A DNA stretch of 64,000 nucleotides, taken from assembly GCA_000934665.2 (NCBI GenBank), contig JYFJ02001089.1, positions 1-64,000 of the forward strand, read 5' to 3'. The position numbers and the translations under genes were made by a program. Under the pieces are notes generated by a model, which saw only the letters and a program-made list of their open reading frames with translations, had not been told where the DNA came from and ran no database searches. Shown one piece after another: positions 25,233 through 64,000 of this stretch. How positions within the stretch are numbered: position 1 is the stretch's first letter; each line of letters begins with the position of its first letter. This DNA is from Catajapyx aquilonaris. Taxonomy: Eukaryota.

Positions 25233-25302
25233 GCGGCCTTCGGAAGAAAAGATGGCACCAACGACCACCATCGAAACCATCACCATCACCAGACCATTAA
25301 AG
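25233..25302 (+). CDS. TMEM47: TMEM47-like exon with the canonical start (RPSEEK-MAPTTTIETITITRPLK)
   Basis: Branch-like CTAAC at 25204, tttcag| acceptor, AAG|GTAAGC donor. Confidence 0.9.
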
Positions 25303-37300: not shown

Positions 37301-40300
37301 GAATAGGATGAAAGGGTAGCTTCCTCTTACCTATCTTGCTCTGTGCACTGCAGGCTCGGCATATACCATGCATATCTATTACGGGTCCACTGGTTATCAG
37401 ATTTTATCTCAGAGGATATTCATCACTGGGCTGCAAGTGGACCTGTGGATATGCTCGAAATAGTTAGTGACATTTACATTTTTTAAATAAATAAAAAGCG
37501 AACGATGTTAACCTCTGAGGGAGGCCCTATGTTTTCCGTGACCTGTCGCAATTTAGCAACTTGTGAAAGAGCTATTGATTATCTGAGAGCTGAGAACATT
37601 CTGTTGTTTTGCAAATATTGCTTTATTGTTCTTTCTGGCAATGGCGCGGGTAGAATCTTCAATATTTATCGACTGTTGTTTACGTTTGCAAGCGCCCGCT
37701 TGCAGCAGCTACGTTCGAAAGCTCTTATTATTATTGCTTCTGGCAGAGTATTTTTTATGGATTTCCAACTGCTGCAGGCTGCTTCACTTACACAGCATCT
37801 TGACTCCACTTCATCTAGGATTGCTACAGAGGAGTTTCTTGGCAGGCAGCATCTCTGCTTTTCCTCTTATATTACCAGAGTGGTTCACGCCTGCAACCAA
37901 AGCGGTTCAAGATGATTGAGACTATAGAACTTTGCACTATACCTTTGTACTGTACGTCATATGCTTTCAGTCGTTACAAGGAACGAGTCATGTTGGATTG
38001 AATACTGAGGTCGTCGTTGCATGTATAAGATCAAAGTGAACTCTCTTTTGCCTAATTTCCATCGGAGCTTTGAGTCGAAAGAGTAGGTTCGGAAGGAACA
38101 AGGCCTTACTTTGTTGGTCGTTGTTACTGTGTGTTACTGACCTTTGCTATTCCTTGTGCAATAAAATATTTTCCAGTTCAGACTATATTTCTGTCCCGAT
38201 TTTTTCAAGATGTTTTAGCACAGGCCATGTGCTAATTCCCTTTGACTGGGGATAGCAAAAGTGTGCAAGGGCCATTAAATTTTCCTGGGCCCGTGATGCA
38301 GTGGCGTCGAAGCGTGAACATGGCCCGATGACGAATGACTCCCACCGCTGGGATTTCATCTGATCAAGAACCGAGTTAGTTGCAACTTGCCATCATGGCC
38401 TTATAACCCAGATGCCAGCAGATCCCCAAACTCGAGAGGGAAGTTGGTAGTTTGCAGACAGCTAGCTTCTATATGCAGTGGAAACAAAGCCCAGCACTGC
38501 ACGGCCAGTAAACTTCGACAATCTTAAGCACAGGTGTCACCTGGGAACTCCTGCTTAACATCCCAATGCACGTACAACGTGTTCAGAAGCGCGATATTGT
38601 CAGCCTTGATTAACTCTGAGCTTGGAAACTGTACCCCTGATATCTTGCCAGGGAAATATTGCAGCCAGGCGAACCACCAACTTGGTACATTCCGACAATT
38701 CTGGCCTGGTTAAATATATTATTTTGAAGGGTAGTTCCGATGCTGTTATCAGCTTTTCCAGACATGTCAGCAGCTGGTCGCGAAAGTCTGCATATAACTT
38801 GAGTTAAACAAGTCGACTGGGCTTTGTTGTACTTGGTGGCGAAAACGTTCCCGGAGAGTGAACACTTCTCGCGACGGTTACTTCAGATTCAAAAAGAGCC
38901 TGATGAATGCACCTGCAAATTGAAAATGGTTGCAATTCTAAAGAAACCCCCAGGCCGCAAGTAATATCGCAGGAACAATGAGCCCTCAGGGGGTTCGCAA
39001 GAAGTCGTGAAATTTGAACTGAACTGTACTTGCCGTAACTAATTGACCGCCTTTGCCGTATCTGTAATGTAACTAGTTTTCGAAAGGGACGTTCGACGGT
39101 AATTTAATCAGTATACACAGCGTTAACACCCTACACGAGCCGAATCAGGATAGGATTTGTACGGCCCGTCAGCCTTGATTGAGAGAACCCCGCCGAATGT
39201 GCCAACCTTTAAAGCCATCATGAACTTTTTTTCACTGCCATCCGGATTTTTTTAAATGTAATAATCAATCATAGGTTGGTCATATCCAAAAAGATGGCCA
39301 TTTTCACCATTAATGCTGCCTGTGTCAATGTGGGACAGGGTAATGAAAGGGAGATTCTAGCGTCTGAGATGGGTGGGTGGCAATTAGAATCTGTGGAGGT
39401 GGACATAGCCATGTTTGTCCGTGCGGTAGAGAGAGCCCGGGAAGTGTCAACAGGGCGAGAGTCCGGTCCAAATTGACATTTCGACGACCAGTCTCCCCCC
39501 ACCCCACCCCACCCCACTTTTTTTNTTCTTTCTTTTTTTTTTTTTTTGCGACCGCCCTTCCCCATGCAAATGAGGTTCAATCAATCACGCCCAACGTTTG
39601 AGGACCCTTCATTTCTAGTGGGATACAAAAGTGTCACATGAATCCATCACACCTACTTTTGCAAGCTCATAATTCAGCATTTAAAATGTTTGGTGCGTTG
39701 TGCAGCCGGTCATTAGAGTCGAACAGGATTGTTGATCAGCACTTGTTTGAATTGGTGATTCATATATATTTCCGGAGTTGTTACAGGTGTAATTCTGTCC
39801 GGTTGTGATATTGACGGATTCTCGGTGGAAGTTGTCATACGCTAGACTAGATGAAGCTACAGTGCGTGTCAACAGGGTTTATTGGACAAATTTATTGTTA
39901 GAATTCTGCTGGATGCTTGTGCCACGATATTCTTGTCCAAACATTTTAATTAACGTTATGGTGCATAACTCTTCATTGCTGTAATGTTGCCCAAAATGTT
40001 GCAAGTGTATACTGTACGGTCGGATCCCATGTGGCGTTTTACGCGACATTACTGCACTGGATGCTGTTGAAAATGTATTTTAAATTCTCTTTGACCCGAG
40101 AGAATTCCCTAGTTGACATTGTACTGTGGACTGTGTTAGATGCACTTAAAGCTACGGAGGGCAACGAACTGACCACATCCGCAATTAAAGGGGGATAGGT
40201 GAAGAAGTTATTAATTTAATGGTGTAGCAAACAGTTTAAAGAGAACCGACCGTCACAAGTGTATACAAGTTGCTTATTTTAAAAGTGGTGTTTGGGATTT

Positions 40301-43300
40301 AAACAGACCACAACTTCTTCCCCTACTACTGGTACACTACCACGTATAGGTTCCATCGGGTTCCATAATTAACGAGATGGATGAAGCCTATACGGTGGGA
40401 TTAAATATCAATGCATCAGACACACGACTTCCAATTATAGTCCCGAGGCAGGGTCAATTTATGCAAATGTGATATGTGATTACACTCAGGTGACTACACA
40501 TGCGAGAGAAAAATCGTTTACGATCTGATATTATCCTCTGATTGTGATTTATATTTACATTCTTCTACCTAAATCTATAGCCGGTTTGCACCATCACCTT
40601 CAAGAACATTATCCAGTTGGCTAAATGTTGTTAGTAGCAATTGTTTCCTGGAGGTTGTGCAACCGGACCTGAAGGAAGTTATTGCTCCCTTTATGAACCT
40701 CACGTATATAGAAACTCCATAACAAGCGGCACGTTGTTCCCAGATATTACTCGAGCACGCAAAGGCCTCTGGGTATTTGTAATTATCCTATATATCCGCA
40801 GCCGTCCGGAACATAATATCAGAAAAATGTATTAACTCGTATATGTACACAATAAACGCACTAACAAGGCCTGCTGAACAAGTTTCATAAGGAACCCATA
40901 AAAAAAACCTTTATGCATCTAACCATGTCAGATACTAAACATCTTTCCCCCCCCCTACATTGTTATACACACCATAACGAGACTCGGAGTGTATAAGGCT
41001 CCCCTGTTTTTAGCTCTATAGAACTATAGAGTCTATATACCGCTCCCCCTAGCCGCGGCCTCCCCCCAGGCAGACACTCCCCCGCAAGCGCGTCGGCTGC
41101 TACTCGGAGAGAGCCAGCGCGAAGTTCCCGAGGTGTGGGCGCCAGGTGATGTGGCCCGCAATACCAGTTCTCCACGTCCACCAGACGCACACGCGGTCCG
41201 ACCCTTGTAAGAACCAACAAAAGTTGAAACCAGGCGCGGGGAATAGGCTGCACAAAAAAATATTAGAAGGTGGGGGAGGGAGCGGATGGGGAAGCCACCA
41301 CGTGTGGGAGTCACGTCGCATGCAACTCGTGTTCACACGTGACCGGTACACGCGAAAGAAGTCATAAAAGGATAGTCGCATAATAGGTGATTGATTAGCC
41401 GGATTCACGTTGGAATTCAATGTAAGTAGCAATTTTTTTTTTCTAATGGTCTATTGTGTAGTACCTGTCAAGTGTTCAAAGTCATTCTGAACAGCACGTG
41501 CTATGTAGGGTGACCATAAAGTTTTGACACATAGGTTGCCAGGTGTCAACCAGCTATATAATGTGTCCAGACGTTAGGGTCACTGTTTGTCCAGATTATA
41601 TTCCTAAAAATACTTGTTTCACCCCTTGTTGCATTTACGTCTACTAGATCGGCGCACTATTTTTACGAGCCGGTTGTGTGTATAGTAGCGCAATGACGTC
41701 ACAGTGTTTTACGATATTAGTTTTTGGGGGGAAGCTGGAACCTATCACAGGGGGAAGGGAGGGAGCTTAATGCAATGTGTAGAATACCGTGATCGATAGA
41801 TTGATTTTTGGATGCGAGTCATCTATGCGGGGGGAGATACGCAATTTGTCCGTAAATGCTGTTCAGGGGTTCTATATTGACGGTTTCATGCGATGCCCAC
41901 ATCACACACGCACTGGGTATTAGGAAAAAAAGTCCAATGAGGGACAGGATGCGACGGGTGGAAATAATGCCCGAATTGGTCTCTGACAAGTGGTGGGCAG
42001 GCTTGGTCATTTTAAGGGGAGGCCAAGCTGTGGACAGGTGCATACCCATACATACTGGTCATGCTTCACCTGCTCGATATTTCTTTGCACTCACCTTTCG
42101 TTCTCAACTGGCAGTCCTCAGATCGATAAATTACAGGTCTGGGCGTGGCTTTGACGTTTCCCCGCCGCCGACACCATCTCCGCGTGTGTGTATCTATCCC
42201 CCGTTCTCTATCATGCCGTGCTAACGAGGCAGGGATGCGATACAGATCGGCCTCTAGAAGGCCAAAAGTGCGCCAACTTGAAGGTACCGGGTGAGGCAGG
42301 AGCGCGCCCCGATTTGTGACGACGAATTGGTCAAAATTTGCATCAAATTTTCGTATACTTGTAGTTTATGCTGTTGGCTGTTGTATAACCAGATGTTACA
42401 ACCCATATTCTGAGAATAATGCACATGTTGATTCTGGTAATTTTCACTATCTGCGTTAGGTCAACTGCCCTGATAAGAGAGCTCTTATGGAGTTATTTCT
42501 GTACAAGAGGGAAGATTTATCACGAGCCAGAAATAAAACGCTGAAATCTCTGCGGTATGCTCCAAGTACGCTGGTCGATTCCGTTTTTTAAATTATTCGT
42601 TGCACCTACTTAAGTGACATTATCACCTGTAGCGTAACCGCCGACATGCACTTTATAATGGTACAGCCTTTTATCCTGGCAGTCATACATCCCTTGTGCC
42701 TTCCATGCTTTCCGTGTTGTATGCACGAAAGGGGCTTAGCAACACTGAATGTAGAAGCACACATAATCCTTTCTACCGACTGAAAAAGCCTTTAAATTAT
42801 GAAGTTGTAATGCAGTGACGGAAATTACGTCGCATTTTTTTTTTTTTTTTTGCTGCTGGCCTTTTGACTGTACTGTACATTGCAGTAGTACGAAGTTGTG
42901 TCAGGCTGTAGTTGGCAGAGGTCTGAATGGTTCCGCTATTATAACGACACACAAGCGAGCGAGTATTCTGAGCAAAAATTGTAACCGCCGCGCCCGCGGA
43001 AGCGAGATCCGCAGAAATTACTGCCTGTAATTATCCGAATTAGTAGTTTCGGGATTGTCATATTTTTTTATTAGCCCGCACTTTTTTGTGTGCAAGCTCG
43101 TAGCCCGAGACATCGATTGCTTGCAGCGCTTTCGGACATACATGCGCCCCACCAAAAAAAATGTAAATGATGTTTTCGGTCCCCTGACTTCTTTATGGAT
43201 CTCCATTAATTAAAATGGCGAATTGTGCCAAGGCAGAGTTTTGGAGAGTTTGTTCAAATGTGTCTGTCACATCAGGTACCGGTGTATTTCCGAGCCAGCG

Positions 43301-46300
43301 ATTTCTGTCATCAGCACCGGGTAGTGCGCACCATACCAGGTGATGAACCTACCGGCCTCGTATTAAAGATTTGGTGCGGATTAATTATTCATTCACGTGT
43401 AATGGAAAATAACCCGCGGGCCTTTTCCTGTGTAGGCGCTACGTGGGGATGAATTAAAGCCGTGGAATTAACTGCATAAAGTTGCGAAAAACTCCGATGC
43501 GAATTTACGCGCGGCCTTTTTATTTTATCAAAAAATGAGGGTGCATTACGAATTAATGATTAATCGAGGGGTTTATTTTTTGAGGCGTAACTAAATAACG
43601 TAATTGCATGAGTTGCTAACCAAAATGAGGTGTAAGTACTGAAGCGATTAATTTACTACAGATATCTGCGCAGTGCTTCATTGCAATCTTATGATTAGGT
43701 ATTCAGAAGGTTTTCGTTATATGCAATATCATCAGTTGATTTGCCACACGCAGAATGCCAACTAAAAGGGGCCATCTCGAAATCCGATATGTAGCTGTAA
43801 TGGCATTGTCACATGAACCGTTCCTTCTGAACCTAGAATTACAGAACCTTCCCAGGGGCCACAGAGATGATTCCCAGCATCCCTAAAGTTATGCACCTGT
43901 CACGTGATCCGACTCTGGACCAGCCAGAGGTCTCAAGAGCGCATCAATCCTCCGCCTCCTTTTTTTTTTTTGCCTCTCGAAATAGAATATTAGATGCTTG
44001 GTGAGAGCTCAAAAGCCTCGAGTTTCCAGCATATCATAGGGAGGGTTAAATACAAGTCATGACATATAGAGGTATATAATACCTGACGTTTGGAGCGAAG
44101 AAATGGGTAGGATGCACCTACAAAGGGGGAAGAGTCCGAAGTGCTTTGTAAGGGTAATTAAAGCCCTTCTTTGTAGGCTTGATTCTCAATGGAAATGGGG
44201 TTTCAGCCAAGTCTTCAAAGGATTTTTTATATATATATAATTCTGAAGCTCCGGTTTTAGGCGGAAATGAGAGGAGAGCAAGGCAATTCGTCATGTGGCC
44301 AGAACAATAGTACTACCCTGCAAGTTAAGACAAATGCTGGTTTGTTTGATTCTCTCGAGTTTTTTTTATTATGAAAAAAGGGGGAAGCAGGGAGTGCATC
44401 CATTTTCTGGACAGAAGAGAAGTGATGAATACAGGTGGCCATTTTTTATTGTTGCTCCAATTAGCTGCAGGTTTTCGAAATGTTTGTCGGGCCAGCATGT
44501 GTGGAAAACAATCGAATGCGGTGAGTGTAAAAATGTGTGGGGGCGAGCTAAGTAATGAGACGCGATGCCAATGAAATCGCGATAAGTCACCGTGCGGGTG
44601 TTATTGGATTAGGAAATACAAGATCCCTGATTTAGGATTTTAATTTGGACTCTCTAGTATTGAGCTCCACACTTTTTTGGGGGGAAGGGCGGGGGGGAGA
44701 GAGAACTCTAGGATTGAGCTANCTAGGATTGAGCTATTTTTTTTTGCTCCCCCTCTATTTTAATTGAGCCGAAGCTCAACGTACTTTCGTGCCAACTTTT
44801 TTTTTTAGATGATTGCTTTTTCTCTTTCCCTTCTCCTCCAGTTTTTTTTTACGATTTTTGTCCGGGCTGTTATTACACAGGAAGGGAAGCCAGATTAAGC
44901 CCAGTTAGGAAGAAGGGAAGTTGTGCCATCAGGGAAAATTGTCTCTTTCTGGAATGGGGCGCGAGTGTTGCTGGAGGGGACCAAAGAAGAAGCATTTCTT
45001 TGTGGTGTTTTGGGTCGAATTACGCTTTTTTTCAGAAATGTCCTATGCTATTCAATCTCGTTTCTTGGCGGATCAAACCTCCGTTCGACTTCGATGACAT
45101 GTATGATTTGCTGGGCGGGAAAAGTGGTTTGGAATATGCGGTCGATTTTGCACATTTTTTTGCACATTTTTGATGGCTGGTGCACTGTGCTTTGTAGGTT
45201 GGCCTGAAAAGCTAAGCAAATATAATGCAGTCATGTTTGCATAACTGTCATCACTGAAATTGCCGACTGAATGTGAAACTAGCAGTTTTTTTTGCAGTGC
45301 TTTCAGTTTATTAAATATATAAAACGCACTTTATTAAGCACACGCATTATAGCAGGGTATTTGAGCAGGTAAAGTGGACCCCTATGCCAACACTGAGAAT
45401 ACTTGAACCCAATGGTGTTCTGCCATGTGTAATTCAGCTCTTTAATTAATGGCCAATTAAAGCATTGAGATGAATATACTATGAATAGTTTTTTTTAAAT
45501 AAATCCATTAAGTCCTCTTCTGCGTGGATAATGACAATATGGATTTTTATGACCGTCATTGGACATTCTGTATACATAAACAGTCCGGATTTTTAAATGG
45601 AATATGTTGTGTTTGAATCCGGCGGCATACACGCAATTTGTGTTGCCTCCTTCCCAGGATACATACCCTTAGTCCTTGATGCTGCTGCCCCCGTCAAACG
45701 AAGCCTGAAACAACATCTGATATGACCGAGGCTTGTAGAGACAGGAAGGAAGATCTTGATCAAAGCTAGTGTTGGCAGCTGCCTTGTGCAACAATGTCCC
45801 CATTAATGAATTAGAATCGGAGTGAAATGGCGCCTAAACGGGCCGAGGCCTATAGGCAGCTTTTACATGTTCAGCTTTTCGGCCCTGGTTCCCCCTCGGG
45901 ACGGATGAGCGTTTTAATGCCATGAAAATTGGGCGTCGTTCCGGGCCATAATATTCTCCTGCCCTGCTTTATTACTGCGATTAGCAGGTTGGGGGGGAGG
46001 GGGGGATTTTTGTTTCAAAATTTGGACTCTCCTGCGCTTGTTTTGAGCTTGCGGGCGCAGATTTTGGCGTTTATTAGCGCTGTCGAGATGTTGAGTGTCA
46101 CACGTGACGTGACACCCTTCATGTCCACAGGGCCGGGAGGGTTCCAAATAATTAAGGTGCCCTAATTTAGGGGGGACATGTAGCTTGTTGAGTCAAACGC
46201 CTCCGGACATTAGCACCTGTAGTTTCAAGTAATGCGCCACGTTCCATGACGGGTGTTCCGCAGGAGAGGGTACGCACCCTCTTGACCTTCACACAACCGC

Positions 46301-49300
46301 GATATTCCCATGCACATGTGGATTGTCACAATGAGCACAAGCTTGTTGTCCTTTTTATTTCGGGCTCCCAGTTCTCATGGGAATGGGATGGGTACAAACC
46401 ATGTAATGATACTGTGCGTAATTAATGCGTCCATAAACATTTTGAATTTCTTTCCTTTCAGGTAAGGCTGTCCGTTGCATCCATGGGGACTGAGGCTGTT
46501 AGCGGTGAGGAAGGTTTTCTGTGGTTTATGCAGAAAATCAGATGCCGGAAGGGTGTGGAAAAACGTTTGGCAGGCCCCCCCGAATCTTCTTGGAGGTGCA
46601 AATTCATCAAGTTAACCGAGTTATCAGGGGCCGCTGCGGGAGCTAATTAGGACCGTACGGCTAGAAAATTACGGTCGGCATTAACCTACTTGGACCGCCA
46701 TCCTCTGCTTTGCTTTCCTTATGATTATTACCCGACAGTGTAATGCGCCGGATAAAGTCCTGGATTACATAATCCCTGATCCTCCTAGCTTAATGACTCG
46801 CGTGCAAGACTCTTTCGCCAGTTTTGCGACTTTAAAGGTGACAACGGAGATGGGGGTGGGAGAGAGTATATGATGATATTAGTTTATACTGCATATTTCA
46901 ACATTAGAAGGTCGTTCCCCCAAGGTGTTTGCAGTCTGTAATGCCCCGGATATTGAATTAAGTATGTGGCTGAATTAAATATTGTAGACATAGATATACT
47001 GCCACTTTAAGGAGGAGGAATGAAAGCCTAATTGGGCACAACTTTATAGCGTAAGAAACTTTGGGTGAACACGGAACTTATTATAATGGCTTGGGTTAGC
47101 TGCAATTAACTGCAGGGCTGAAGGAAATTTTTCTTTCAACTTTGTGGGATTAAAGTTTGGCCAAGTTGAAAAGTAAATGTACCGCACTGTACATGCAATG
47201 CATTTGCTGGGTCTACTCAGCAGTATTATCGGTACGTGTTAAAAGTATACTGCCTATTACTAGTCGTGGTTATGTAAGCCCATTCAGTTCCGAACTGCTC
47301 TCATAACATTTAATATGCTTGCCAATTTAGTCCTTTACAAATTGCGAAACGGGATTTCGCATAAGGAAATGCATGATTTATTACCAGAGCATATTGTAAT
47401 GAATGAAAACTGCTCGCGTGGTATTCGCACATTGCGTTAGGTAAAATTAGAAACTTTTTTAACTCGCGTGCTGCATAATCGCACGTTTTCTGCTTATAAT
47501 ACTGAAGCACTTTCTCCTAACATTTTTTTTTCTATCCGCGAATCGCAAGTGCGAATCAATCTTATCGCCTCGCCATTCCATACGACTTATACAGCTCCCT
47601 ACCCGGCATTTCTGCGGAACCGGGAATTATTCTCCGATGAGCGTTTGTGTGAGATATGCTCAGTGTGTGAGCTACGCCTCGTGTCATTTTTCATATTATA
47701 TTCATCCCAGCAGACCTTTTGTCTTTTTTTTTTTTTCAACATAGCGCGTGCCAGGGCTTCCAAGATGGAAAAAAAATTCGGGTTTCGCGTCGTCGCAGTT
47801 ATAAAGCTGCTCATGGCAGGCCTCCCATATATATTTTTACCACGCTGTACTGACTGGATGAAACGCTAAATTGGCCCCTTAGTTATTTGAATGAGGGTCG
47901 GATGGTGTTAGTCGAGTGCCATCAGGCCTGACAAAATAATTCGGCCCCCAGTTTATCTCTCAGCCCCGCAGAATATACGGGGGGGCCGACTTGTTTACGA
48001 CCCTTCATTGTATTGGGTATTTCGCGGAAACGTTCTTTGTGATTAACAATTGCACGTTATCGCCAATTTATCATGTCCGCATAATTTTTCACGGGGGGGT
48101 TCGTCTGGACTGCGGAGGATTTTAATAATTAACTGGTTGGGGAAAATCCCTGGGTTTTTTTCGGGGGAGATGTAAATCATTTATAAGCGGTTTGGCTGGC
48201 AACGGAATTAGGTCCCAAGGAAAATAAGCATCCTAGTCTGTATACCATGGATTCTGCTAATTTCCAAAGCGGAGGTAGCTCGATTTATGGTTTGACCGCA
48301 ATAAGAATTATGGGCCGGTAAGCGTTAGCACCAGGATTGAATGCAGAGGGATTTTGAGCTACGAATTTTTAGGAGCGTCGGAAAAAAAAGAGCAGGTGGT
48401 GCTTTTTTCAGTGTTTGTGAATATGTACGGTTGACAGCCGGAACACATACGGTTTAGAAAAATTTGTACTGGGGCTGGGATTATAATGGTAAACAGTGCG
48501 GAATAATCTGAACGGGCCGGATATGCCGGATGAAACTTTTGTTGTATCAACATTGGAGCGGGTGTATGTGCGATTTGTTGCTGTATAGAGTCGGGCTGAA
48601 ATTTAGTGGAAGGAACAAAACTAAACACAAAAAAAGAGCGTGCTGCAGCGAAATGTTAATTTAGTCCGTTTTAAATGGACTGGGGCCATAATCTCGTTTC
48701 CGGGACATACGGAATTCCTGGCAATCACATTTGTAGACGTTTGGGTATAACAAGGTTGTAGCCACCATAACGATCCCATTTCCCGCCCAGTGGAGCAAAG
48801 TGTAACGTGAAATCCCGCAGTTGCTTTTTTCCTTCTCTATTTTTACTGATTAAGCTAGGGGCTTGTTGGGTCCCATAGAGCCTGGGTTTAATTAGTAACC
48901 AGGAAAAATTCCTCTGATTTTTTTAAAAAAATGCGTGGATTCGTTTACTCTGGGATCATATTTACACCTGTAAAATCTTCGAAGCTGGCTCGGACCCATA
49001 TTGCTCATTAATGAGTGGCTGAATAAGTAAAGCCATGAAACCTAAACCCTGTAGTTCACTTGTAATGCACTACTAATTTATTGCTAACACGCAGGTTGTG
49101 GCTGGAGGTTAAGTGAATATTGCAGCAATTCGTGGGGTATTTATGGCCATGGATTAGCCAAAGCGCTAATGGAGCCTGCGTCTGTATTCAAAGTCGCTTG
49201 GTGTCTAGTTAGCACATGAAGAATGAAGCTGACTTCACCAGGTCGGGCCAGTGGGTTATTCGGGCCGTCTCTTGGGAAAGGAATCCGTCATGCCACTTGG

Positions 49301-52300
49301 CCATATGCAAATGCTCTGGCATGAGATTATAATAGGCTGCTGCAGGAGAGCGTGGGAAATATGAGAAGGAGAGGCTCAAGCACGATCCGATCCTAAGTCA
49401 TCACCTCTTATACCCAAGCACGATCAAGAACCAGGCTGGAATGTCTCATACTCTTTTTTTTTTGTACATATGAGTTTCGCTGAGCTGAATTAGGGAGGTG
49501 TGGCAAGGCGGACGACCTTGAGTGTCCATTTGTTCCTCCTTGGTAAGTTTTGCCTCGAGCCATTCTGACCATCCAACCAGTTGGAGGCGGATGGTCGGCC
49601 CTGTTGGCATTCCAGAGGATCTGTGGAATCCGATCGTGTTGCTCATTCTTTTGTCTGCTGTGGTTGGACAGGGGGTACTCTAGGGCAGGTGAGGGGCACC
49701 CCTGTAAAAATAGGCAACCTTGGAAGGCAGGCACCTTTTTCTTGTGGCAGCTGGCAGACGGGGCTGATTGTGGCCAGCTAAGGATTTTTCTTACTCATTT
49801 GGTCGTCTGGAAAAGCATGAGTACGATGCGGTTTTAAGTGCCGGACGCTGCGAATGACTAACGTGATTTGGAGCCCATTGTGCAGTGAGTCAGTGACGGT
49901 GCAAGTGTCGAACATGCCGGCACCGTACTATCGCCTGGCGTTGTACAGCGGAGCTCGTTTGATCAGTGGAAAGGTACGCATTTTGTGTTGGGTCATTTTT
50001 CATCTTCCGGACAACTTTTGGGAAGCTTCCGGGTGGGCCATTTTGGATGGCGCAGTATTTCAACGTCCGAAATCAGATTGCGTTGTCTGCTCCTTAAGAC
50101 TGGTTGTCTAAGTGGTTATTGATCACGCACATGCATCATTCTGACGAAGAAGTATGGGAGGGCCAGAAATATTTTTCTCTCGGAATTTTTGCATCCGTAC
50201 ACGTGACGTCACCCTCTGGAAACCATGGCTACACGTATGAGATATTGGAACAGGCACGTACGACACATTCCTTGCCACGTGTTATCAGGGGGTTATAATA
50301 TGACAAATTCCAACGTGTTTGAACTTTTGAAGTACAGGTGACCCATGAAAAGGTGCGGACCTTGGGTGCCTTTTCTTCTCACCTTTTTTTTTTTAAAGTA
50401 GAACCTGGTCGTCACCTGCTCGGATTTGCTTCCCGCGGCGAATTTTAATCAGCGTGGGGGTTTGGGGGCCAAAGCCTCTCCATTACGTCCACGGGGTTAA
50501 AGTATCGATTCTACCGAACAAGGAAAGGTAATGGAGAGAAAGCGGGTGTAAACATCCATTATATTGGTCCTTGAGTCAACCTGTACACTCAAGATTCCTA
50601 GAAAAAAAAAATGGTGAGGTCACCTCAGCTATCAAAAAACCAGGTGTTATGACTCAGTTTTTGCAGCATCAATTGTGTGCAACCACGAAAAATCCGTGCC
50701 TAGAAAAAGATCTGGTTTGCAAACAAAAAAAAAAGAAGAAGGTAGAACCAGTTTCGAATCCTAAACAAGTCCGAACTTGAGGATGCGGATCAGGATTCTT
50801 AGAGCGAGGGCTTTTGTTTCTAGGAGTTGTGCTATGCCCACTTTGCCCCGTTTTTGCTTCTCTTTACCCCGGGTTGGCAAGGCCCACATTTTGAACAGGC
50901 AAATAGTGCTTTCAATCTCTCCAAAAAGAGGCCCGGATCAGCTCGGATCCGGGCTGATTTAATTCGATGCCAGTATATGCACTATTTGTAGCAAATTCAG
51001 GAGAAAGTTTAACTTGCAGGGGAAAGGAACTCATTAACACTTGGGGATCTTTAAGACGCTGCGGGGGCCAACTCCTTAATTGCGTGTTTTGACTAAAAGT
51101 TTACTATCGACACTCAGCTTCCTGTTTCCACACTTGACTTGTACCTTGAGGGCAGGTACACACTAAAATAGGCCTGAATAATTAGCAAACTGACCCCCTT
51201 TTTTTTCGGACGGATTTGGATTTGGATGGGGAAAAGGCACAAGGGAATCCCTTTTTTAGGCATTTTTTTGTGGGCACATCCGGTGCCCCTGGATAATGTA
51301 AAAGGTCTGGTTCGGGAGGCTGCCATGTGAAGCCGGCTTGTTTTTACCTGCCCACATTCTTGCGTCGCGTGACTACTCGATGGTCACTGCCTCCTATCCT
51401 TTAGGGCACAAATGGACTTTCATTACGAGCACAAGTCATTCATCTTTTTTGTGGGTTGGAACAATAAAGTACATTGTCAAGGTTTCTCAACCGCTTGTTT
51501 CCAACAATCCGGACCATCTTTGGGCAAGCTGGCATTTTGCGAATGGTCCTTTTTTTTCGTTTGGGATGATCTGAAGGCACCGAATGTACCGCATTTTCCC
51601 CCCAACTTGCGCCTCAACTGGTGTCTCCCCAAATCGATGCCCGGAGTCTGCGGCAAAGGCAAAACCCAAGGAGCCTTGCAGGCTCACTGGACCCCCGGTG
51701 GATATGCCCAATTACGGACTTTGCAAAGGCCCAGCTGCGGCCCCTATACCCAACACATTTGTAATTCTAAGTGATCATGCGTAGGAAGGGACTTGGGGGC
51801 CAACAGCACGCGATGCACGCACTAGATATGTCCATTTTTTTTATTTTATTCGGCGGATGGATGTCCCCAGGGTGTGCGTTATATTGCAGCCTATTCCCCA
51901 TTTTTAGGGTGGTCATGAAATCGACGCACCTGCAGCGTTCTGCTTTTTAATAATGTACTGGGTGTGCTGTACTGTATATGCTGCAGGGAGAGAGCAGTTA
52001 TAGGTATATATGCAATACTAGAAATTGGCGTCATTGCACAACTTCTGAAAGTGGCTGTTGGTATGGTTGAAGTGCACTTTTGGTTTTGAGTGCTTGTTGA
52101 CATAGTACTGTACAAATAAATCTAAATATTTACTTTAAAATGAGCGGGATGTACGGTTGTGAAGCAGTAGTTTTGCCTCCAGGAGTGTAATAAAATTTTG
52201 TAAAATAATTTTAAATTTATTGCGATATTACACGATTTAAATTTAATTTTTGTATCGAAATGTATTGCAACTGCACTGGTTTCCTGTATATCTCGACGCT

Positions 52301-55300
52301 TCTGTCTTAATTAATTTGTACAGTAAATTTGCAGTAAGATTGGAAAATTAAGCCGGAAGTGTGCCACGCCCATCAGACGCATGTTGCGAAGGATGTGTCA
52401 ACAAGAGACTCCCCTAAAAGTCATTATATTAATGCCTTGATTAACTCGTAGCTTAGCAGTGTGCATAAACAGTCTTATCCACGCCATATTTGGGGCAGAG
52501 TCACCCCCAACTTTAGATTGGCAATTGCTGTAACACCCAGTACAAAACGCGAATAAGAGCAGTGGAAATTTGACCACTGCAGGGCTAATCGTGCCGAACG
52601 TTTCCAACGTGCGTAATTTCGTGGGCTCCCCCAAAACTTGCAAATCCCAGCCCAATTTCGCTCTCGATTAGAGGTCCCGAAGTGTGAAAGTGCCGGCAGT
52701 GCAAAAGAAAGTGGCAAGAGTTAAGTGGTGTTTTGACGGCAAAAAATACTGGAGGGGGAACTATCCCCTCTGGAATAGTTCAGGATGAATATGGGTGCAA
52801 AGGTAAGTGCATGTTAATTTGCATGCGATGTCTTGTGTGTGTGTATGTGATTGGTGGATATCACCATTTGTTATGCGGATCACCTCAAGGGTTGGGTGAA
52901 AGGGGACTTTGGAGATACGCCAGAATTGGGTCTGGAGGGATTCGTTATTCCAGGAGAATATCTGGAGAAGGGGATAATGGCTCCCAGGATCTATATAGCA
53001 GTTTGGGACCGAATTCAATTAGTAGTTCCCCCGCGGCCTTGTTTCGTCCTGTAGGTGGAGGCAAAAGGATGGGATAAGGCATTATGCAGATGTGGAAGGG
53101 GGGGGGGGGTAGGGAAGGAGGGCTTAAGACAATGCTGGAGAAAGCCGCGCCTGGAATTATGGATGGGTAAATCCTTCCCAGTCCTCCCCATGTTACAAGG
53201 ATCAGGAGGGTAGACTGCCAAAGTCCGTCCCGCAAAATTCTATCCCAGAAAGGGTTGGATTAGGCCGAGACTGAGGCATGTAGTGCGGTCTGCACTTTCC
53301 AGGCAGGTATTGGATTCAAAAGCGATAAGCATGCGCAGTGTTCACCCCCAAAAATGTGGAGGAAAATTGTACAGTAGAAAACGGCCGTGCTGAGAGAGAA
53401 TTTCCAGAGGAGAGAGCTGGAGGATTTTCATTTAAATTCATTGTACACCTTCCTCCCTCGAAAAGTGCTGATAATTCAAATGTGCAATTTCCCGTGGACT
53501 CACTAATTCGGTCCCTAATCTGCAAATGTCAGGTGCTAATTAGTGGTGGCTCACGTGGCCGTAATTAGTTTCGCCAAACATGCGAAAACTTTTGCCGAAG
53601 AATTTAAACGGTCCTCTTAGACTTATTGTTTCATCATCTCGCACTTTTTGCGAAGAGTTCATAACGCCGTTTGTAAAGAATCCGTTTTTTTTCGGTCTTT
53701 AGGGTTGAATTAGAGCACATTAGGGGCACCCAGCTGATCATGTCGGTTCGTCTGATCCGGAACATGCATTTGAACTGCGAAGGTGGTTAACGCCACTTGT
53801 CCTCCTTCAACGCTTAAGCGAATAGAACAGTAATTGAGGAAATTCGGCCATTCTCGCACAATTAATTAGCAGCCTAATGAGATCCATCTCCATAGCATGA
53901 TCAGCGTCATTGCAACAGCAGCAGCAGCCAGGGGGTCGTGATTGATGGACAGCCCTGTAATCCTAGTGATGGTTTAACTAACCCTGCTGAGCTTCCCCTA
54001 CCCAAAAGTGCGCAGATCCAACACTCCACCCTTTTTTCGGTTATTAAGTGAAAAAATTTATTTTTCCCCCACTTATTAAACTGAGACAGTTTTGCACATA
54101 GTGTATGTGAAAGTTTAGATCAGCCGTACATTTATACGTTTAAATTTATTTAAATGCAATGAAATTACTGTGAGTGTAAAATGTGTAATTCCACTTAAAT
54201 ACCCGAAAGAAAAGTCACAATTTTTCTACTTACAAGTAAGTGCAAATCGAATTAGCGTATGTCAGCAGATGGCCCACCAGCATGAATATGAAATTCAAGG
54301 AGCGGTGATTTACGAGAGGAATCGATAGCATTTTACGACACAAGTGGTCATTCAGAATACAATATAGCTCAGTGATATCCGTCGTCACTTCCCATTGTTG
54401 GTCCCTTGCATGTTGATGTAGTACCTTTGGCCCCACGTATGCATCGTTAAGGAATCAGCGCTTGTGGTCAGGCCTTCCGACACAGGCCATGGGACCAAAG
54501 GAAACCAGAATCCGTTTGGGGATGTAAGAGGAGAGGGGAGGAGCGTAATTTGGTAAATTGGGCAGGAGACGATTCCTATTGAGCGTGGAAAGGGGATCCT
54601 GATGGAATTACCTGATGCTTGTGGCGTGCTGCCCTACTACCACTCACACGTGCCGACTTCTTCAGGTCGATAAAAGTTTGGCCTTCCAAACCATCATGAG
54701 GGGTGGACTCAACTGTATATTTTTATAATTAGCCGATCTTAGCTTCCGGTGAGGTAAGGTGATGGCGTCATCTTCCGGTAAGAAATTTTCGTTGAAGCTA
54801 GCCTTGATCTACTGCTACTTTGGCTGGCTTCCAAGGGCTCGTTTTCATGGTGCGTCACCTTTGCCTGACCGTGCCAATGAACTCGGTCGACGCCGGTGAA
54901 TGACCAAATTCGCGGAGGATCTCAGCCGGAGTGCCTACAAATATGATTACAGACGCGGAATAAATTGAGCAACGACGATGTCGTGGCTTGGAAGCAGCGA
55001 ATATTTAATATTAGAAAATACCAAAATATTTTAGTAATGAATGGATGGTGCATTGTTGGCCAGATTTTTTTGCCCTTTTGTGCGAGGCGACATGATCGCC
55101 GAAATCTGAAAAGAGCTAGGGGCCTAAGCTAGTAAACAAGAGGAAGGAGCAACAAAAAGGGGGGTAAGTGTAAGCCTCCCAAGTGTTGGACAATCTTATC
55201 GTATCCATCCAAGCAATTTACTGGCAAGCGAGCCTCTAATCCGACAAGGCAATAAAGCTTTAGGGACACGAAAGGCGGTTGGTTCTCCAGGGAGTAACGA

Positions 55301-58300
55301 GTCTTTTCTTCTCTACACTGCAGCATCCAATAGGCTTCAAGGCAAGGAAAAGGAAGCGAAAAAAAAGGTAGTGCTTATACCTTTCTTTTTACGTGCAGAC
55401 TCATAAACAGGAGCCAATTACCCTCCAAAAATGACGCCGTAACTGTACGGCCAAACCTCATATACACACACATCCACGTGGTTTTCTGCGTTTACGGCCA
55501 ACAATATGTGGCTTTTTTTCCGACCTTTTTTTTTGTGGAAGGCGAGCTTTGTTGCTGGGGCTGAATTAGCCAAGAGGTGGTTCCCGCAGGAGTTTTTGAT
55601 CAAAGTTTAGGGCATTCTCCGCCCCCGTCTGCCTTGTATTCTTGCCTTTTTTTGTATGGTAGTCTGAAAAGAGCTGTGCGGCGCAACATTCCATTTTGGT
55701 GGGAAAGCACGTGCTCCCATTCCAGAACTCATTTGTGGCACCCACTCTTGGGTTTCGCCATATCGATTTTGGCTATGTTCTTTTTTAACCTCAAAATTTC
55801 ATTGAAAGTACGAGCACCTAAAAATATTTGCAAATGCAGAGGACTTTTTTTTTCTCTTTCTTTCAACACATTTTTTTTAGATGGTTGTTGAGGGTTGTGT
55901 AGAGTGAAAAGCAGACTCTCTGCGATGCAAATCTCTCGAGAACTATTGCATACCGTACGCCCCGTTTGCTGGGGCTGCCACCAGTCCCTCCCCTACTACG
56001 AAAAGTTACAAATTCTCTGCAGGCTTTGTATGAATTCAGGTCGCCTCTCGAGTACGAAGCCAAGCGTGGCCGCGATAACACTAAGCTCCGCTATAAGGCC
56101 CTTAGAGATATCAAGGAAATTGCCAGAATGTTCCTTTCCTTCTCCGTTTTTTTTCTTCTTTTTTTGGAGCAAAGCGTGCCTTACTTCCCCCGCATTTTTT
56201 TTTTTCGTGGCGTATTTTTTAAAAGACGTCTGAAGTCATACTTATGGAGGAGTTGAACAAATTATGGCCATTATCTTCCAACGACATATGACTTGGGGCG
56301 TTATTTTTTGCGAGCACGTGGATATGTTGCCAAAATTGCACAAATTGCGTGGCGTTCATATTTAAGTTGTCAGATGCCAAACCTTTCAAGTTTCTATGGC
56401 AATTTCCAATCGGCTTCTATAGATGCTTTAAAAACGGGAGAAAATAGGTATAGGGGGTGGAGAGGCAGAATTTTTTCCTTTTTCGTTGCAGCCTCCTTTA
56501 GCGCGCAGATGAAAGGGCGGAAATGGTGAAGGAGGTGCTTTGACCTGTTCCTCGGAGATTTCTGCACAGAAAAATATTGCATCTAGTCCGTCCCCCTTCC
56601 ATGTCTTCAAGTCGATTCAGCAACAAACGTAGGGGGAGGTTGACGAATCTTTGATGTCGCCTGGGATCCGCAAAGGCTCGGCATTAAGTTATGTACGCAA
56701 GGGCTTTTGATCTATAGGAATGGTTGTGTTCATGGCGGCAAGTTTTGATTTTTTGAGGTAAAAGTTGGGAAATCAATTCTGGGTTCGACATGGAATTTCT
56801 ATTAGCTGTGATGGAGTTAGGCGTGTTGGTGGTTAAGAGGTTTAATAAATAAACGGGTATGAACAACATTGCGGGTTAGTGTAACTGTAGGTGCAAATTG
56901 ATGCGACCGTATTATTCAATTAGGTGTGGACGGCAAGGTAAACAACAAAAAAAACTGCTTAAATATTTAGTCGTGTACGTCAGGGATTAAAGAGTGCAAT
57001 TTGGGTAGTTAGAACTTGTTTCAAAATGTCACACACACTGTTCTGGTTCGTAAATTTGCTGAACAGTCCCCAACTTTTTCTCTAAAAAATTTACTGAATG
57101 TTCACTTTGCCACACTTTTGCTCCGGTTTGAAAGTCAATGAAACCTAATAAAAGTGGGTGGATTGTATAGCTGGAAATTGCCCTTTTTTATTACAGCAGA
57201 GGGACGCACCCAACGAGAATCAATTGCTATGTCCATTCGAAACACGCAATTTTCCATTTCCGACGTAAGTGCTTTTTTTTTTTTTGAGAAATAGAAAAAA
57301 GAGGCGATGAAAAGAGGATCTCTTGACAAATCTTGACGAAAAGAAGCAAGAAGTCCACAGAGTGTGTGAGATGATAAGACCACCACCCTCCACCTCCTCC
57401 TCCTCCTCTCTCAAAAAAAGGGGCATCGATTGGCCTCACGTCTGTTGAATCCACTTCATTTTTGCCCATTTCCTTTTATGCCAGCTGGAATTTTATCGGA
57501 GGCAAAAACCGGCGTTTCTTTTATAGCTGCTGCGAGCGGCCCCGCGTATATATATCTGAACACAGGGGAGCCAACAGGATGGCCTCCGTGATGGCTTCTC
57601 CTGGAGAAGGCAATCTTTGCAAAGACATTCGTGATGGGAAACAAATATCCCCGGTTGGAGTCGTCCGCCTCTCCACCTTACCCAAATCGATCCTTGCAAG
57701 CAAACAGTCCCCTCTTCTTCTTTTTTTTTTTGCCTATACCACCCTCGATGCCTTTTATGTCCCTCAGCAGCCATGGATTTCTTTGTCTCCTTTCGCGCCT
57801 CACCGACCTGTCCTTCCGAGCAGGACAATATTGATTGGATTGGCCATCTGATGATAATATTCACAATAGGTTAAAGATCCATTAAATGTGCAGTTTAAGA
57901 TAACTATTGTTGGGTGATTATGGGGGCACTTACCATTCCTCTTTTTTAAAAAGAGGTTTATATGGAAACATGCCATGGCGCCTTTTTCGTTCTCCAACCA
58001 ATTTGGCGGGGATAGAGTGCTGGGTGTGGGTGGGTGCCGCGTGATAAAAACCCTGCTGGGGGGAGGTAGATTAATGAGGGCGTGTTCCAGATCGGTCAAG
58101 GTGGGTCCCAAAGTGTCCAGGGGGCTCTAATGGAATCGGCCAGTGGATGAGGAAGGCGGAGTTGGCCCGAAAAAAAAGTGCACAAGTGAAGATAATTAGG
58201 AAGAAGTTGGAAGGAACATATGCGATCGAATTATAATCTCTTTAAGAGGTCAATTGAATGCAAATGATGTGACTAACTCTCGAGCAGTGTGGTTTTGACA

Positions 58301-61991: not shown

Positions 61992-63218
61992 TGCGAGTGA
62001 AGCCCGACTTGTAATACTGACTCTCCAGCCAGTGCAACTGTGGTGGATGTAAAGTCCTAGGGGCATGCTGGCTGTCCCATAGTGAAAAAGTTTATGTGCT
62101 GGGAGAATGCAAGCCAAAAATTTTCATGTGGGTGGTGGTGTCGGCAGGTTGCTATCACCTGAACTTTTTCGAGTAGCACTGCTTTGTCCTAACTTTTTAG
62201 GTTCTTATCGCTCCCAGCACATTGAAGTCTATTGCACTCTAACCTTGTAATTTTATCAGTAGCAATTGGGTTTAAAATATTTGTGTATAACAACCAAAAA
62301 AGAAAGAAAATTGACAGTAGCGAGTATTTCCAAGAGTAGGTATGGGTTGGTGTTGTAGCTCTCACACACACAAGCTGTGTATACAGCTTCTGCACTAACT
62401 TTGCCTCCACTTCACAATTGCGATGATGAATAGATGAGCTAAAAGTGAGTGTGTGACGTCCGAAGCAGAAAGCAATTTATTACCTTTTGAGATGACCATC
62501 TTAGTTCTTATTGGCAAAAATTTACTATTATCAAGGTTTTTTGTCAATGTACTCGAGCTTTTTGGAGCAAGGCAAGCCAAAAAATACAGGAGAATTGTAA
62601 AGTGATCACTGCCTCTTGCAAACAGGTTGATGCGGTGTTGATTTTACTGGCTCTTACAGTGTGACTTATTTGGAAGTAGGTATTAATACAAATATTAGGC
62701 AATAATTGATCGACTCAGGCTTTGGAAGATGAGTTGGTGCTATGCGTGTCCATCCAACATTACGAGAGAGGGTTTTTATGCTCGGCAGCTAATAAGCAAG
62801 GAGGCAGTTAATTTTATTTTTTGCTTTCAAATTCGCTAATTTTTGAATGCTTAAATTTTTATATGGTTTTTTGTGATATTTTTGCAGCTCTCTTGGCAGC
62901 AATGCGCAACCTACAGGGAATTTTAGACATTCTTTTTTGCAAAGTGCGCCACTCAGGTCTTGATTTGTTTGATTGCTCCCTGTTGAATAATCTGCAGTTT
63001 ATTTTGTAGAAAGTGACATGAATGAGTGGTAAAAAGAGTGTTGTGGGATGATTAGTATGGAGGGTTTGGACAAACACACACGACCCATGCATACAGATGC
63101 TAAAGACAAATCCACATTTAAAAAAAGAGAGAAATGATAATTATAATAATCCAGACTGACAAACCATCCTAGTGCCTTTTTAAGTCGCTCTTTGAAACCA
63201 TGGATGTGGTTTCCTTGA

Positions 63219-63253
63219 TCAAAACACAGTTACACGACGTAACTGTGTTTTGA
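63219..63253. repeat. Perfect 15-bp inverted repeat with a 5-nt loop
   Basis: TCAAAACACAGTTAC-acgac-GTAACTGTGTTTTGA. Confidence 0.9.
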
Positions 63254-63989: not shown

Positions 63990-64000
63990 CTAAATTAATA

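What the first reader, a model, noticed from the sequence alone, without database searches (positions are those of the whole stretch)
46372..46510. Recursive-splicing ratchet point with a 43-nt cryptic poison exon in the TMEM47 long intron
Seen: an AG-free stretch of about 88 nt, a branch-like TTAAT, the tract ttttgaatttctttcctttc, then AG|GTAAGG (46461/46462). It is the only YAG-GTAAG with a strong tract that I found in the 35.6-kb intron, and it splits it into 21,159 + 14,406 nt. The upstream exon ends in AAG, so splicing here regenerates a strong donor AAG|GTAAGG. A second donor GCG|GTGAGG lies 43 nt downstream. Established: Drosophila long introns are removed stepwise at AG|GT ratchet points defined by short cryptic exons. 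Inference: including the 43-nt exon shifts the frame to a premature TGA in the 61114 exon, giving a possible NMD switch on TMEM47 output. I know of no report of this for TMEM47-family genes.
Basis: partly seen in the sequence, partly recalled or inferred. Interest (0 to 1): 0.75.

Follow-up and report, generated by a model that had tools for sequence, protein, structure and literature searches.

The report
Candidate recursive splice site, TMEM47 intron
A long intron of an arthropod TMEM47 gene holds one sequence that looks just like the fly "ratchet points" used to remove long introns in two steps, but no RNA data could show that it is used.

Summary
AG|GTAAGG lies at 46461/46462. It follows an 88-nt AG-free zone, a TTAAT and a 17/20 pyrimidine tract. 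A weaker donor, GCG|GTGAGG, lies 43 nt downstream. The site splits a 35,565-nt intron into 21,159 + 14,406 nt.

The host gene is the orthologue of insect TMEM47 / Drosophila CG45049. One spliced contig of a public run confirms the exon model. It joins 25302 directly to 60868, so the 43-nt exon is absent from the main mRNA.

The site is the only AG|GT of 141 in the intron with a strong acceptor context. A site this good arises in about 3% of shuffled introns at moderate thresholds and in 0 of 2000 at the observed strength.

It meets every sequence criterion of fly ratchet points: TT at -5/-6, intron and segment sizes, a near-midpoint position, and a short out-of-frame cryptic exon with a weaker donor.

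The defining RNA evidence (exon-to-site junction reads, saw-tooth coverage, lariats) and conservation could not be tested. The NMD-switch idea has no support.

Verdict: a plausible new member of a known kind (about 0.45). It is unproven and of modest interest.

The parts
25233..25302 (+). Upstream coding exon (…RRPSEEK-MAPTTTIETITITRPLK). It ends in AAG and its own donor is GTAAGC.
   Evidence: Sequence. The loose end of the spliced contig before 60866 reads the last 30 nt of this exon. tblastn with insect TMEM47 proteins matches here.
25303..60867 (+). 35,565-nt intron, phase 0, between K and V of …RPLK|VIAFICG…
   Evidence: The intron position is the same in other arthropod loci.
46372..46459 (+). 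88-nt AG-free zone upstream of the candidate acceptor.
   Evidence: Only 1 of 3895 AGs on the window + strand combines an AG-free zone of at least 88 nt with at least 17/20 pyrimidines.
46422..46426 (+). TTAAT, candidate branch site (A at -37).
   Evidence: It is the only match to the yUnAy pattern that I found by eye between -40 and -15. This is an inference, not a tested result.
46440..46461 (+). Pyrimidine tract (17/20 Y, TT at -5/-6) followed by the CAG acceptor.
46462..46467 (+). GTAAGG. After ligation to …AAG it regenerates AAG|GTAAGG. This equals the exon's natural donor AAG|GTAAGC at 8 of 9 positions.
46462..46504 (+). 43-nt cryptic recursive-splicing exon. It is out of frame and absent from the mRNA contig.
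46505..46510 (+). Downstream donor GCG|GTGAGG, weaker than the regenerated donor.
   Evidence: Its match to the MAG|GTRAGT consensus was counted by eye.
60868..61054 (+). Next constitutive exon (VIAFICG…). It starts AG|GTAATC.
61160..61162 (+). TGA reached if the 43-nt exon were included. Two exon junctions lie downstream of it.

Best explanation
The site at 46461/46462 is a fly-type intronic ratchet point, that is, a zero-nucleotide recursive splice site.

Proposed course (inferred, not shown):
1. As the 35.6-kb intron is transcribed, the strong acceptor (branch near TTAAT, pyrimidine tract, CAG) and the donor 43 nt downstream (GTGAGG) define a short cryptic exon.
2. The exon ending at 25302 is spliced to 46462, which removes the first 21,159 nt.
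3. The new junction AAG|GTAAGG is a donor as good as the original one. It out-competes the weaker GTGAGG donor.
4. A second splice from 46462 to 60868 removes the 43 nt together with the remaining intron, 14,406 nt in all.
5. The mRNA carries no trace of the site.

Shown: the sequence anatomy, its rarity, the gene model, and the absence of the 43 nt from the main mRNA. Inferred: that the site is used at all, and the order of the steps.
For: Anatomy and rarity:
- The anatomy is exact.
- It is the only one of 141 AG|GT sites in the intron with a strong acceptor context.
- Of the 30 strong acceptor-like contexts on the + strand of the whole window, only 2 are followed by GT. These are this site and the real acceptor at 60866.
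- Chance estimates: 3.2% of 2000 shuffles at moderate thresholds and 0 of 2000 at the observed strength; about 0.03 expected from real-sequence frequencies. Only 13.6% of intron positions have a GTRAG 20-120 nt downstream.
- Controls found no other site, even at lax thresholds. None of the 4 AGGTRAG on the intron minus strand qualified, and none of the 6 on the window minus strand. On the window + strand the only one of 10 to qualify was this site.

Match to published fly features:
- Duff et al. preprint 10.1101/006163 (whole text read): TT at -5/-6 in 196 of 197 ratchet points; recursive introns of 11.3-132.7 kb; segments of 2.6-63.6 kb with a median of 16.4 kb.
- Pai et al. PMC6110457 (passages): 63% of fly introns above 40 kb have a high-confidence site, and single sites lie near the midpoint. 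Here the site lies at 59.5% of the intron.
- Joseph et al. PMC8605326 (passages): a cryptic exon of about 50 nt, generally out of frame, with a donor weaker than the ratchet-point donor.
- Motifs of fly sites listed in Pai's S1 table look alike, and one of them carries GTAAGG (part 1 of 11).

Transcript and host:
- The mRNA contig joins 25302 to 60868 with no 43-nt insert.
- The host is an arthropod gene, the TMEM47 / CG45049 orthologue.
Against: - No RNA evidence of use exists here: no junction reads, coverage profile or lariats. The direct 25302->60868 join in the contig is equally what one-step splicing gives.
- Conservation was not tested.
- The thresholds of the chance tests were chosen after seeing the site.
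- In 131 kb x 2 strands of other arthropod DNA, 1 of 28 AGGTRAG passed the moderate thresholds and 2 passed the lax ones. Look-alikes therefore do occur.
- Five other strong acceptor-like contexts in the same intron also have a GTRAG donor within 250 nt, yet none is in the main mRNA. A good acceptor plus a nearby donor does not guarantee recognition.
- The TTAAT branch A lies at -37, just outside the -36 to -21 range reported for most fly recursive lariats.
- The organism is not a drosophilid. How common fixed recursive sites are in its lineage is unknown. In mouse, human and lungfish, fixed sites are few (abstracts of PMC8797253 and 10.1101/2024.12.11.627982).
Confidence: 0.45

Rival explanations
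1. Chance juxtaposition. A pyrimidine-rich, AG-poor stretch happens to be followed by GTAAGG. The spliceosome ignores it or uses it only as rare noise, and the intron is removed in one step.
For: - AGGTAAG itself is at chance frequency: 3 in 35.6 kb.
- About 3% of shuffled introns give a moderately good site.
- One comparable site (16/20 pyrimidines, 40-nt AG-free zone, GTGAG) lies on the non-coding strand of another arthropod locus, L029.
- Five other pseudo-exons in this intron are evidently not in the main mRNA.
Across many long introns, such hits must turn up by chance.
- The only transcript evidence is what one-step splicing predicts.
Against: - At the observed strength, 0 of 2000 shuffles matched. 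None was found in about 355 kb of real control strand-sequence.
- Several independent fly ratchet-point features coincide: TT at -5/-6, near-midpoint position, a 43-nt out-of-frame exon, a weaker downstream donor, and a regenerated donor almost identical to the natural one.
Confidence: 0.37
2. An ordinary minor cassette or poison exon. The 43-nt exon (or a longer one using another donor) is included in a small share of transcripts by normal alternative splicing. It gives a frameshifted, NMD-prone isoform, and re-splicing at 46462 plays no role.
For: An acceptor and a donor 43 nt apart are present. Inclusion gives a TGA at 61160-61162 with two junctions downstream. Contigs drop rare variants, so a minor isoform would not be seen.
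Against: No transcript with the exon was seen. The exon begins with a near-consensus donor that matches the natural donor at 8 of 9 positions. On the fly model, that donor would remove the exon again (PMC8605326). A 43-nt exon with a weak donor is a poor cassette exon.
Confidence: 0.1
3. The acceptor belongs to another transcript, for example an unannotated alternative terminal exon of this gene or an intronic non-coding RNA.
For: Insect TMEM47 genes have several isoforms with other N-termini spliced to the VIAFICG exon (P0012, P0016, P0022). The long intron may therefore hold further exons.
Against: Alternative first exons need a donor, not an acceptor. tblastn with those isoforms found no match in the intron. 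No open frame longer than 157 codons lies in the intron. Rfam found nothing (0 matches). No contig of run X1 covers 46082-46722, although a blank in contigs is weak evidence.
Confidence: 0.05

Closest known systems
Drosophila intronic ratchet points (zero-nucleotide recursive splice sites) with cryptic recursive-splicing exons. Sources: Hatton 1998, Burnette 2005 and Joseph 2018 as cited in the papers read; Duff 2015 read as the preprint; Pai 2018.
   Same: - Juxtaposed strong acceptor and donor around AG|GT.
- TT at -5/-6.
- A long host intron, with segments of 14-21 kb.
- A position near the midpoint of the intron.
- A short (43 nt) out-of-frame cryptic exon with a weaker donor.
- The exon is absent from the mRNA.
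- The host is an arthropod.
   Different: The organism is not a drosophilid: the exon-2 peptide is only 59-79% identical to insect TMEM47 proteins. No junction, saw-tooth, lariat or conservation evidence exists. The host gene is not known to me as recursively spliced. No paper in the library holds both 'recursive splic' and 'TMEM47'. I could not check the fly orthologue CG45049 against the published site tables.
Vertebrate recursive-splicing exons (Sibley 2015; Blazquez 2018; both as cited in PMC8605326).
   Same: The first step depends on exon definition. Competition between the regenerated donor and the exon's own donor decides whether the exon is skipped. Inclusion would give a frameshifted product.
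   Different: According to the passages and abstracts I read, vertebrate fixed sites sit mostly in much longer introns of brain genes. Many vertebrate recursive-splicing exons are expressed. Here the intron is 35.6 kb and the exon is not seen in the mRNA.
Poison (NMD-coupled) cassette exons.
   Same: In silico, inclusion gives a premature TGA upstream of two exon junctions.
   Different: No inclusion isoform was observed. No conservation or regulation is known. The exon starts with a strong donor that should remove it again.

Membership tests
Fly-type intronic ratchet point | [quoted passage not shown] | tested here: met
   …ctttcctttcag|GTAAGG at 46461/46462. It has the best acceptor context of the 141 AG|GT sites in the intron.
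Fly-type intronic ratchet point | Prominent pyrimidine tract with TT at -5/-6 (196 of 197 fly sites, Duff preprint). | tested here: met
   17/20 pyrimidines. Positions -6, -5 and -4 are all T.
Fly-type intronic ratchet point | Lies in a long intron (11.3-132.7 kb in flies) and cuts it into segments of 2.6-63.6 kb, near the midpoint when there is a single site. | tested here: met
   The intron is 35,565 nt and the segments are 21,159 and 14,406 nt, so the site lies at 59.5%.
Fly-type intronic ratchet point | A short cryptic exon downstream (about 50 nt, usually out of frame) whose donor is weaker than the regenerated donor. | tested here: met
   The exon is 43 nt and out of frame. By eye, the regenerated AAG|GTAAGG matches 8 of 9 consensus positions and GCG|GTGAGG matches 6 of 9. 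No scoring program was available.
Fly-type intronic ratchet point | Branch point 21-36 nt upstream of the acceptor (most fly recursive lariats). | tested here: inconclusive
   The best yUnAy match, TTAAT, has its A at -37. No lariat data exist.
Fly-type intronic ratchet point | Leaves no trace in the mature mRNA. | tested here: met
   One 4531-nt spliced contig joins the end of the 25302 exon directly to 60868. This feature cannot distinguish recursive from one-step splicing.
Fly-type intronic ratchet point | Exon-to-ratchet-point junction reads, saw-tooth read density and recursive lariats in total or nascent RNA. | not testable with these tools
   Only one run (X1, 32 million letters, kept as contigs) holds the locus. 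No raw RNA reads were available.
Fly-type intronic ratchet point | The acceptor|donor core is conserved in related species. | not testable with these tools
   No genome of the organism or of close relatives is held. In the 31 metagenome loci the orthologous intron is either short (about 160 nt in L023, about 1.7 kb in L012/L013) or cut off after at most 6.1 kb.
Poison (NMD-coupled) cassette exon | An inclusion isoform exists and is stabilised when NMD is blocked. | not testable with these tools
   The single contig lacks the exon. Contigs cannot exclude rare isoforms.
Poison (NMD-coupled) cassette exon | Inclusion creates a premature stop upstream of an exon junction. | tested here: met
   The TGA lies at 61160-61162. 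The junctions 61263/61697 and 61759/61831 lie downstream of it.
TMEM47 / claudin-like (PMP22_Claudin) family, host gene | Significant sequence similarity to named TMEM47 proteins along the whole coding region. | tested here: met
   - The exon-2 peptide gave 106 hits with E <= 0.01 among 118 candidates, the best at 3.6e-21. Many are named transmembrane protein 47 and carry PF00822.
- One cluster holds D. melanogaster CG45049 isoform B.
- tblastn maps all exons.
- The joined coding sequence is 203 aa, the same length as that fly isoform.
- Pfam on single exons gave nothing significant: 0 families for three exons, and Claudin_2 at E = 0.16 for the last.

The most novel reading that the evidence does not exclude
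The site is a used ratchet point whose 43-nt exon is not always skipped. Regulated choice between the regenerated donor (46462) and the downstream donor (46505) would switch TMEM47 transcripts between a productive and a frameshifted, NMD-targeted form. Recursive splicing would then act as a dosage control on a junction protein in a non-drosophilid arthropod.
Probability: 0.04. Interest if true: 0.6.

Novelty: new member of a known kind. Interest (0 to 1): 0.3.

Why it matters
If the site is used, it would extend fly-type recursive splicing at a fixed site to a non-drosophilid arthropod. It would also add a new host gene, the orthologue of TMEM47 / VAB-9 / CG45049.

The orthologous intron is only about 160 nt to 1.7 kb long in some other arthropods. 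A ratchet point here would therefore have arisen along with a lineage-specific growth of the intron. That would be a small but useful case for asking how such sites evolve.

As it stands it is a motif-based prediction of a well-known element, and a specialist would not be surprised by it.

Tried and rejected
- **Whole genome of the window:** not held.
- **RNA runs:** no RNA holder was listed. Only X1 appeared, of unrecorded kind and kept as contigs. Laid on 44800-64000, it covers the exons and the 3' UTR but not the site. The blank over 46082-46722 says nothing either way.
- **Repeat check:** 46000-47000 has no second copy in the window. Copies elsewhere in the genome could not be checked.
- **Rfam on the whole window:** 0 matches.
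- **Open frames in the intron:** none longer than 157 codons from stop to stop. No nested gene or intact transposon frame was found.
- **Pfam on single exons:** nothing significant.
- **Protein atlas on exon 2:** gave only unnamed or claudin-like clusters, used as a lead only.
- **Earlier findings of this scan:** four look-ups, all empty.
- **Is the fly orthologue recursively spliced?**
  - 'CG45049', 'CG6982' and a FlyBase number that I recalled without verifying do not occur in the 5 supplementary files of Pai 2018.
  - Those tables list genes only by FBgn number, and I have no verified number. This blank is therefore not evidence.
  - The only paper holding 'CG45049' gives no such number.
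  - The PMC copies of Duff 2015, Burnette 2005 and Joseph 2018 are not held, and bioRxiv supplements are closed. Their site tables may bear on this point.
- **Literature searches:**
  - No paper holds both 'recursive splic' and 'TMEM47'.
  - 13 papers hold 'recursive splic' and 'arthropod'. Of these I read only the locust paper, where a site was predicted by motif and supported by U2AF65 pull-down.
  - One search was badly framed, because it did not require 'recursive splicing'. It adds nothing.
- **Orthologous introns from metagenome contigs:**
  - 31 loci were fetched, 19 of them with genomic sequence in front of the VIAFICG exon.
  - Of the 39,582 nt upstream, the + strand has 9 AGGTRAG. 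None has a good tract, and 3 are simply the donor of the upstream exon.
  - These introns are short or truncated, so this neither supports nor refutes conservation.
- **Alternative first exon ending at 46461:** rejected. Reading backwards in frame there is a stop at 46423-46425 and no ATG after it (read).
Full report
**What is there**

- The last AG before the site is at 46370-46371, so 46372-46459 (88 nt) is free of AG.
- TTAAT lies at 46422-46426.
- The tract ttttgaatttctttcctttc (17 of 20 pyrimidines, T at -6, -5 and -4) runs into CAG at 46459-46461.
- GTAAGG follows at 46462-46467.
- A second donor, GCG|GTGAGG, has its GT at 46505. The putative cryptic exon is therefore 46462-46504, 43 nt.
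- The upstream exon ends …TTAAAG at 25302 with donor GTAAGC, and the next exon begins at 60868. The intron is 35,565 nt, and the site cuts it into 21,159 + 14,406 nt.
- Inserting the 43 nt shifts the frame to a TGA at 61160-61162 in the exon that starts at 61114.

**The host gene**

- The peptide of the exon at 60868-61053 found 106 proteins with E <= 0.01 among 118 candidates, the best at 3.6e-21. Identity ranged from 59 to 79%. Many hits are named transmembrane protein 47 and carry PF00822. Every hit that carries an organism name is an insect.
- One cluster holds D. melanogaster CG45049 isoform B, 203 aa.
- The N-terminus MAPTTTIETITITRPLK|VIAFICG is identical in the fly protein.
- tblastn with insect proteins maps every exon. 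It also finds a further upstream coding exon of the long isoform near 21797-21922.
- The five joined exons give 612 nt, a 203-aa protein with a terminal stop.
- Pfam on single exons was not significant. I could not submit the joined protein.
- The window's peptide departs from residues that are nearly invariant in the insect sequences. The organism is therefore an arthropod that I cannot place more closely.

**Transcript evidence**

- No whole genome is held.
- One public run holds the locus: X1, of unrecorded kind, 32 million letters, kept as contigs.
- Laid on 44800-64000, one 4531-nt contig shows the joints 61054->61114, 61263->61697 and 61759->61831, all GT..AG.
- Its loose end in front of 60866 reads the last 30 nt of the exon that ends at 25302. 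The two-base offset arises because AG fits both sides.
- This confirms the gene model. It also shows that the main mRNA joins 25302 to 60868 with no 43-nt insert.
- Recursive and one-step splicing give the same product, so the contig cannot tell them apart. Contigs also cannot exclude a rare inclusion isoform.
- No raw RNA reads were available. Junction reads to 46462, saw-tooth coverage and lariats could not be examined.

**Is it more than chance?**

- AGGTAAG alone is not. It occurs 3 times on the + strand of the intron (46460, 52801, 54752).
- Among 141 AG|GT sites in the intron, 9 have at least 5 of 6 donor matches. Only 46460 combines that with a strong acceptor context (17/20 pyrimidines, 88-nt AG-free zone). 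The next best have 12/20 and 11/20, with AG-free zones of 9, 2 and 36 nt.
- I ran 2000 dinucleotide-preserving shuffles of the intron, scoring AG|GTRAG sites with a pyrimidine at -3:
  - 19.5% had a site with at least 13/20 pyrimidines and an AG-free zone of at least 20 nt.
  - 3.2% had one with at least 15/20 and at least 30 nt.
  - None reached 17/20 and 88 nt.
- Real-sequence controls found no other site, even at the lax thresholds. None of the 4 AGGTRAG on the intron minus strand qualified. On the window + strand the only one of 10 to qualify was this site. None of the 6 on the window minus strand qualified.
- The intron + strand has 20 strong acceptor-like contexts, and GTRAG occurs 54 times in 35,565 positions. 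About 0.03 chance coincidences are therefore expected.
- Of the 30 strong contexts on the + strand of the whole window, only two are followed by GT: this site and the true acceptor at 60866.
- A GTRAG lies 20-120 nt downstream of 13.6% of intron positions. The second donor therefore adds only modest weight.

Points against the reading:
- The thresholds were set after seeing the site.
- In 131,408 nt x 2 strands of other arthropod DNA from metagenomes, 2 of 28 AGGTRAG passed the lax thresholds. One, on the minus strand of L029, passed the moderate ones.
- Five other strong acceptor-like contexts in this intron also have a GTRAG within 250 nt and are evidently not in the main mRNA.

My estimate is that a look-alike this good arises by chance in about 1-5% of introns of this size.

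**Comparison with known ratchet points**

From the Duff et al. preprint (whole text):
- Fly ratchet points are juxtaposed acceptor and donor motifs.
- 196 of 197 have TT at -5/-6.
- They sit in introns of 11.3-132.7 kb (mean 45 kb).
- They remove segments of 2.6-63.6 kb (median 16.4 kb).
- Their branch points lie mostly at -36 to -21.
- Only 6% of introns above 11.3 kb were scored as recursive in that study.

From Pai et al. (PMC6110457, passages):
- 63% of fly introns above 40 kb have a high-confidence site.
- Single sites lie near the midpoint.
- The motifs in part 1 of 11 of their S1 table look like the present site, and one carries GTAAGG.

From Joseph et al. (PMC8605326, passages):
- A ratchet point needs a short cryptic exon of about 50 nt with its own donor.
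- That exon is poorly conserved, generally out of frame and always skipped, because the regenerated donor is the stronger one.

The present site meets each of these sequence criteria. The regenerated AAG|GTAAGG equals the exon's natural AAG|GTAAGC at 8 of 9 positions, while GCG|GTGAGG is weaker (counted by eye). The one doubtful point is the branch site, because the A of TTAAT lies at -37.

**Conservation**

I fetched 31 loci encoding relatives of the exon-2 peptide from metagenome contigs.
- Nineteen carry genomic sequence in front of the VIAFICG exon, always after AG|GT. The intron position is therefore conserved.
- The intron itself is about 160 nt in L023 and about 1.7 kb in L012/L013. Elsewhere it is cut off after at most 6.1 kb.
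- One predicted protein (P0043) reads straight through an intron there. It must therefore be short, and I estimate about 66 nt.
- The long intron thus looks lineage-specific, and no orthologous long intron was available. Conservation of the site remains untested.

**The poison-exon idea**

The frameshift and the TGA are real, and two exon junctions lie downstream. However, no transcript with the exon was seen. Being out of frame is the normal state of fly cryptic recursive-splicing exons, so it is not a sign of a regulatory switch.

**Literature on novelty**

- No paper in the library holds both 'recursive splic' and 'TMEM47'.
- None holds 'recursive splicing' together with 'CG45049' or 'CG6982'.
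- I could not check the published fly site tables for the orthologue. See Tried and rejected.
- Outside flies, a locust paper predicts a recursive site by motif and supports it with a U2AF65 pull-down (PMC8892266, passages).

**Verdict**

- The most likely reading, at about 0.45, is a fly-type ratchet point with a skipped 43-nt cryptic exon.
- A chance, unused look-alike is nearly as likely, at about 0.37.
- An ordinary minor cassette exon (0.10) or an exon of another transcript (0.05) are less likely.
- This is a well-formed prediction of a known kind of element in a new gene and lineage. It is of modest interest until RNA evidence exists.

Noticed in passing
window 60866-60873 and 61829-61836: Two constitutive exons themselves begin with a donor-like GTAA straight after the acceptor AG (AG|GTAATC at 60868 and AG|GTAACC at 61831). 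At 60868 the GT comes from a conserved Val codon, and all 19 genomic metagenome loci also show AG|GT there. After splicing, AAG|GTAATC is a weak regenerated donor. Fly work reports this kind of site as being kept silent by the exon junction complex (PMC8184009, abstract only).
   Followed up: partly
window 21797-21922 (+): A coding exon matches the N-terminal extension of the long TMEM47 isoforms of mayfly and Drosophila (…GGFSFEGESLPDFSEFD…). The exon ending at 25302 is therefore an internal exon in that isoform.
   Followed up: partly
window 25303-60867: Donor-like words are commoner on the sense strand of the intron than on the antisense strand: GTRAG 54 against 30, and GTAAG 32 against 15. 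Strong acceptor-like contexts are somewhat rarer on the sense strand: 21 of 2111 AGs against 32 of 1943. I did not test this against base composition.
   Followed up: no
window 36425, 36490, 43984, 59467, 60279 (+): Five further pseudo-exons lie in the intron. Each is a strong acceptor-like context with a GTRAG donor 20-250 nt downstream. None begins with GT.
   Followed up: no
L023 185-348; L012 1666-3393; L013 8259-10001: The orthologous intron (…RPLK|VIAF…) is only about 160 nt to 1.7 kb long in other arthropods, against 35.6 kb here. The intron has expanded greatly in this lineage.
   Followed up: partly
L029, minus strand, position 5700 of the reversed locus: A ratchet-point look-alike (…ttattatgtttttcag|GTGAGA, 16/20 pyrimidines, 40-nt AG-free zone) lies on the strand opposite the TMEM47-like gene of a distant relative. 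It is either chance or a splice feature of an antisense gene.
   Followed up: no
window 61992-64000 and beyond: The mRNA contig runs on for 1,696 nt past the end of the window. The 3' UTR is therefore at least about 3.7 kb, long for a 203-aa protein.
   Followed up: no
window 7886, 39525, 44722: Three isolated N bases lie in the window, two of them inside the long intron.
   Followed up: no
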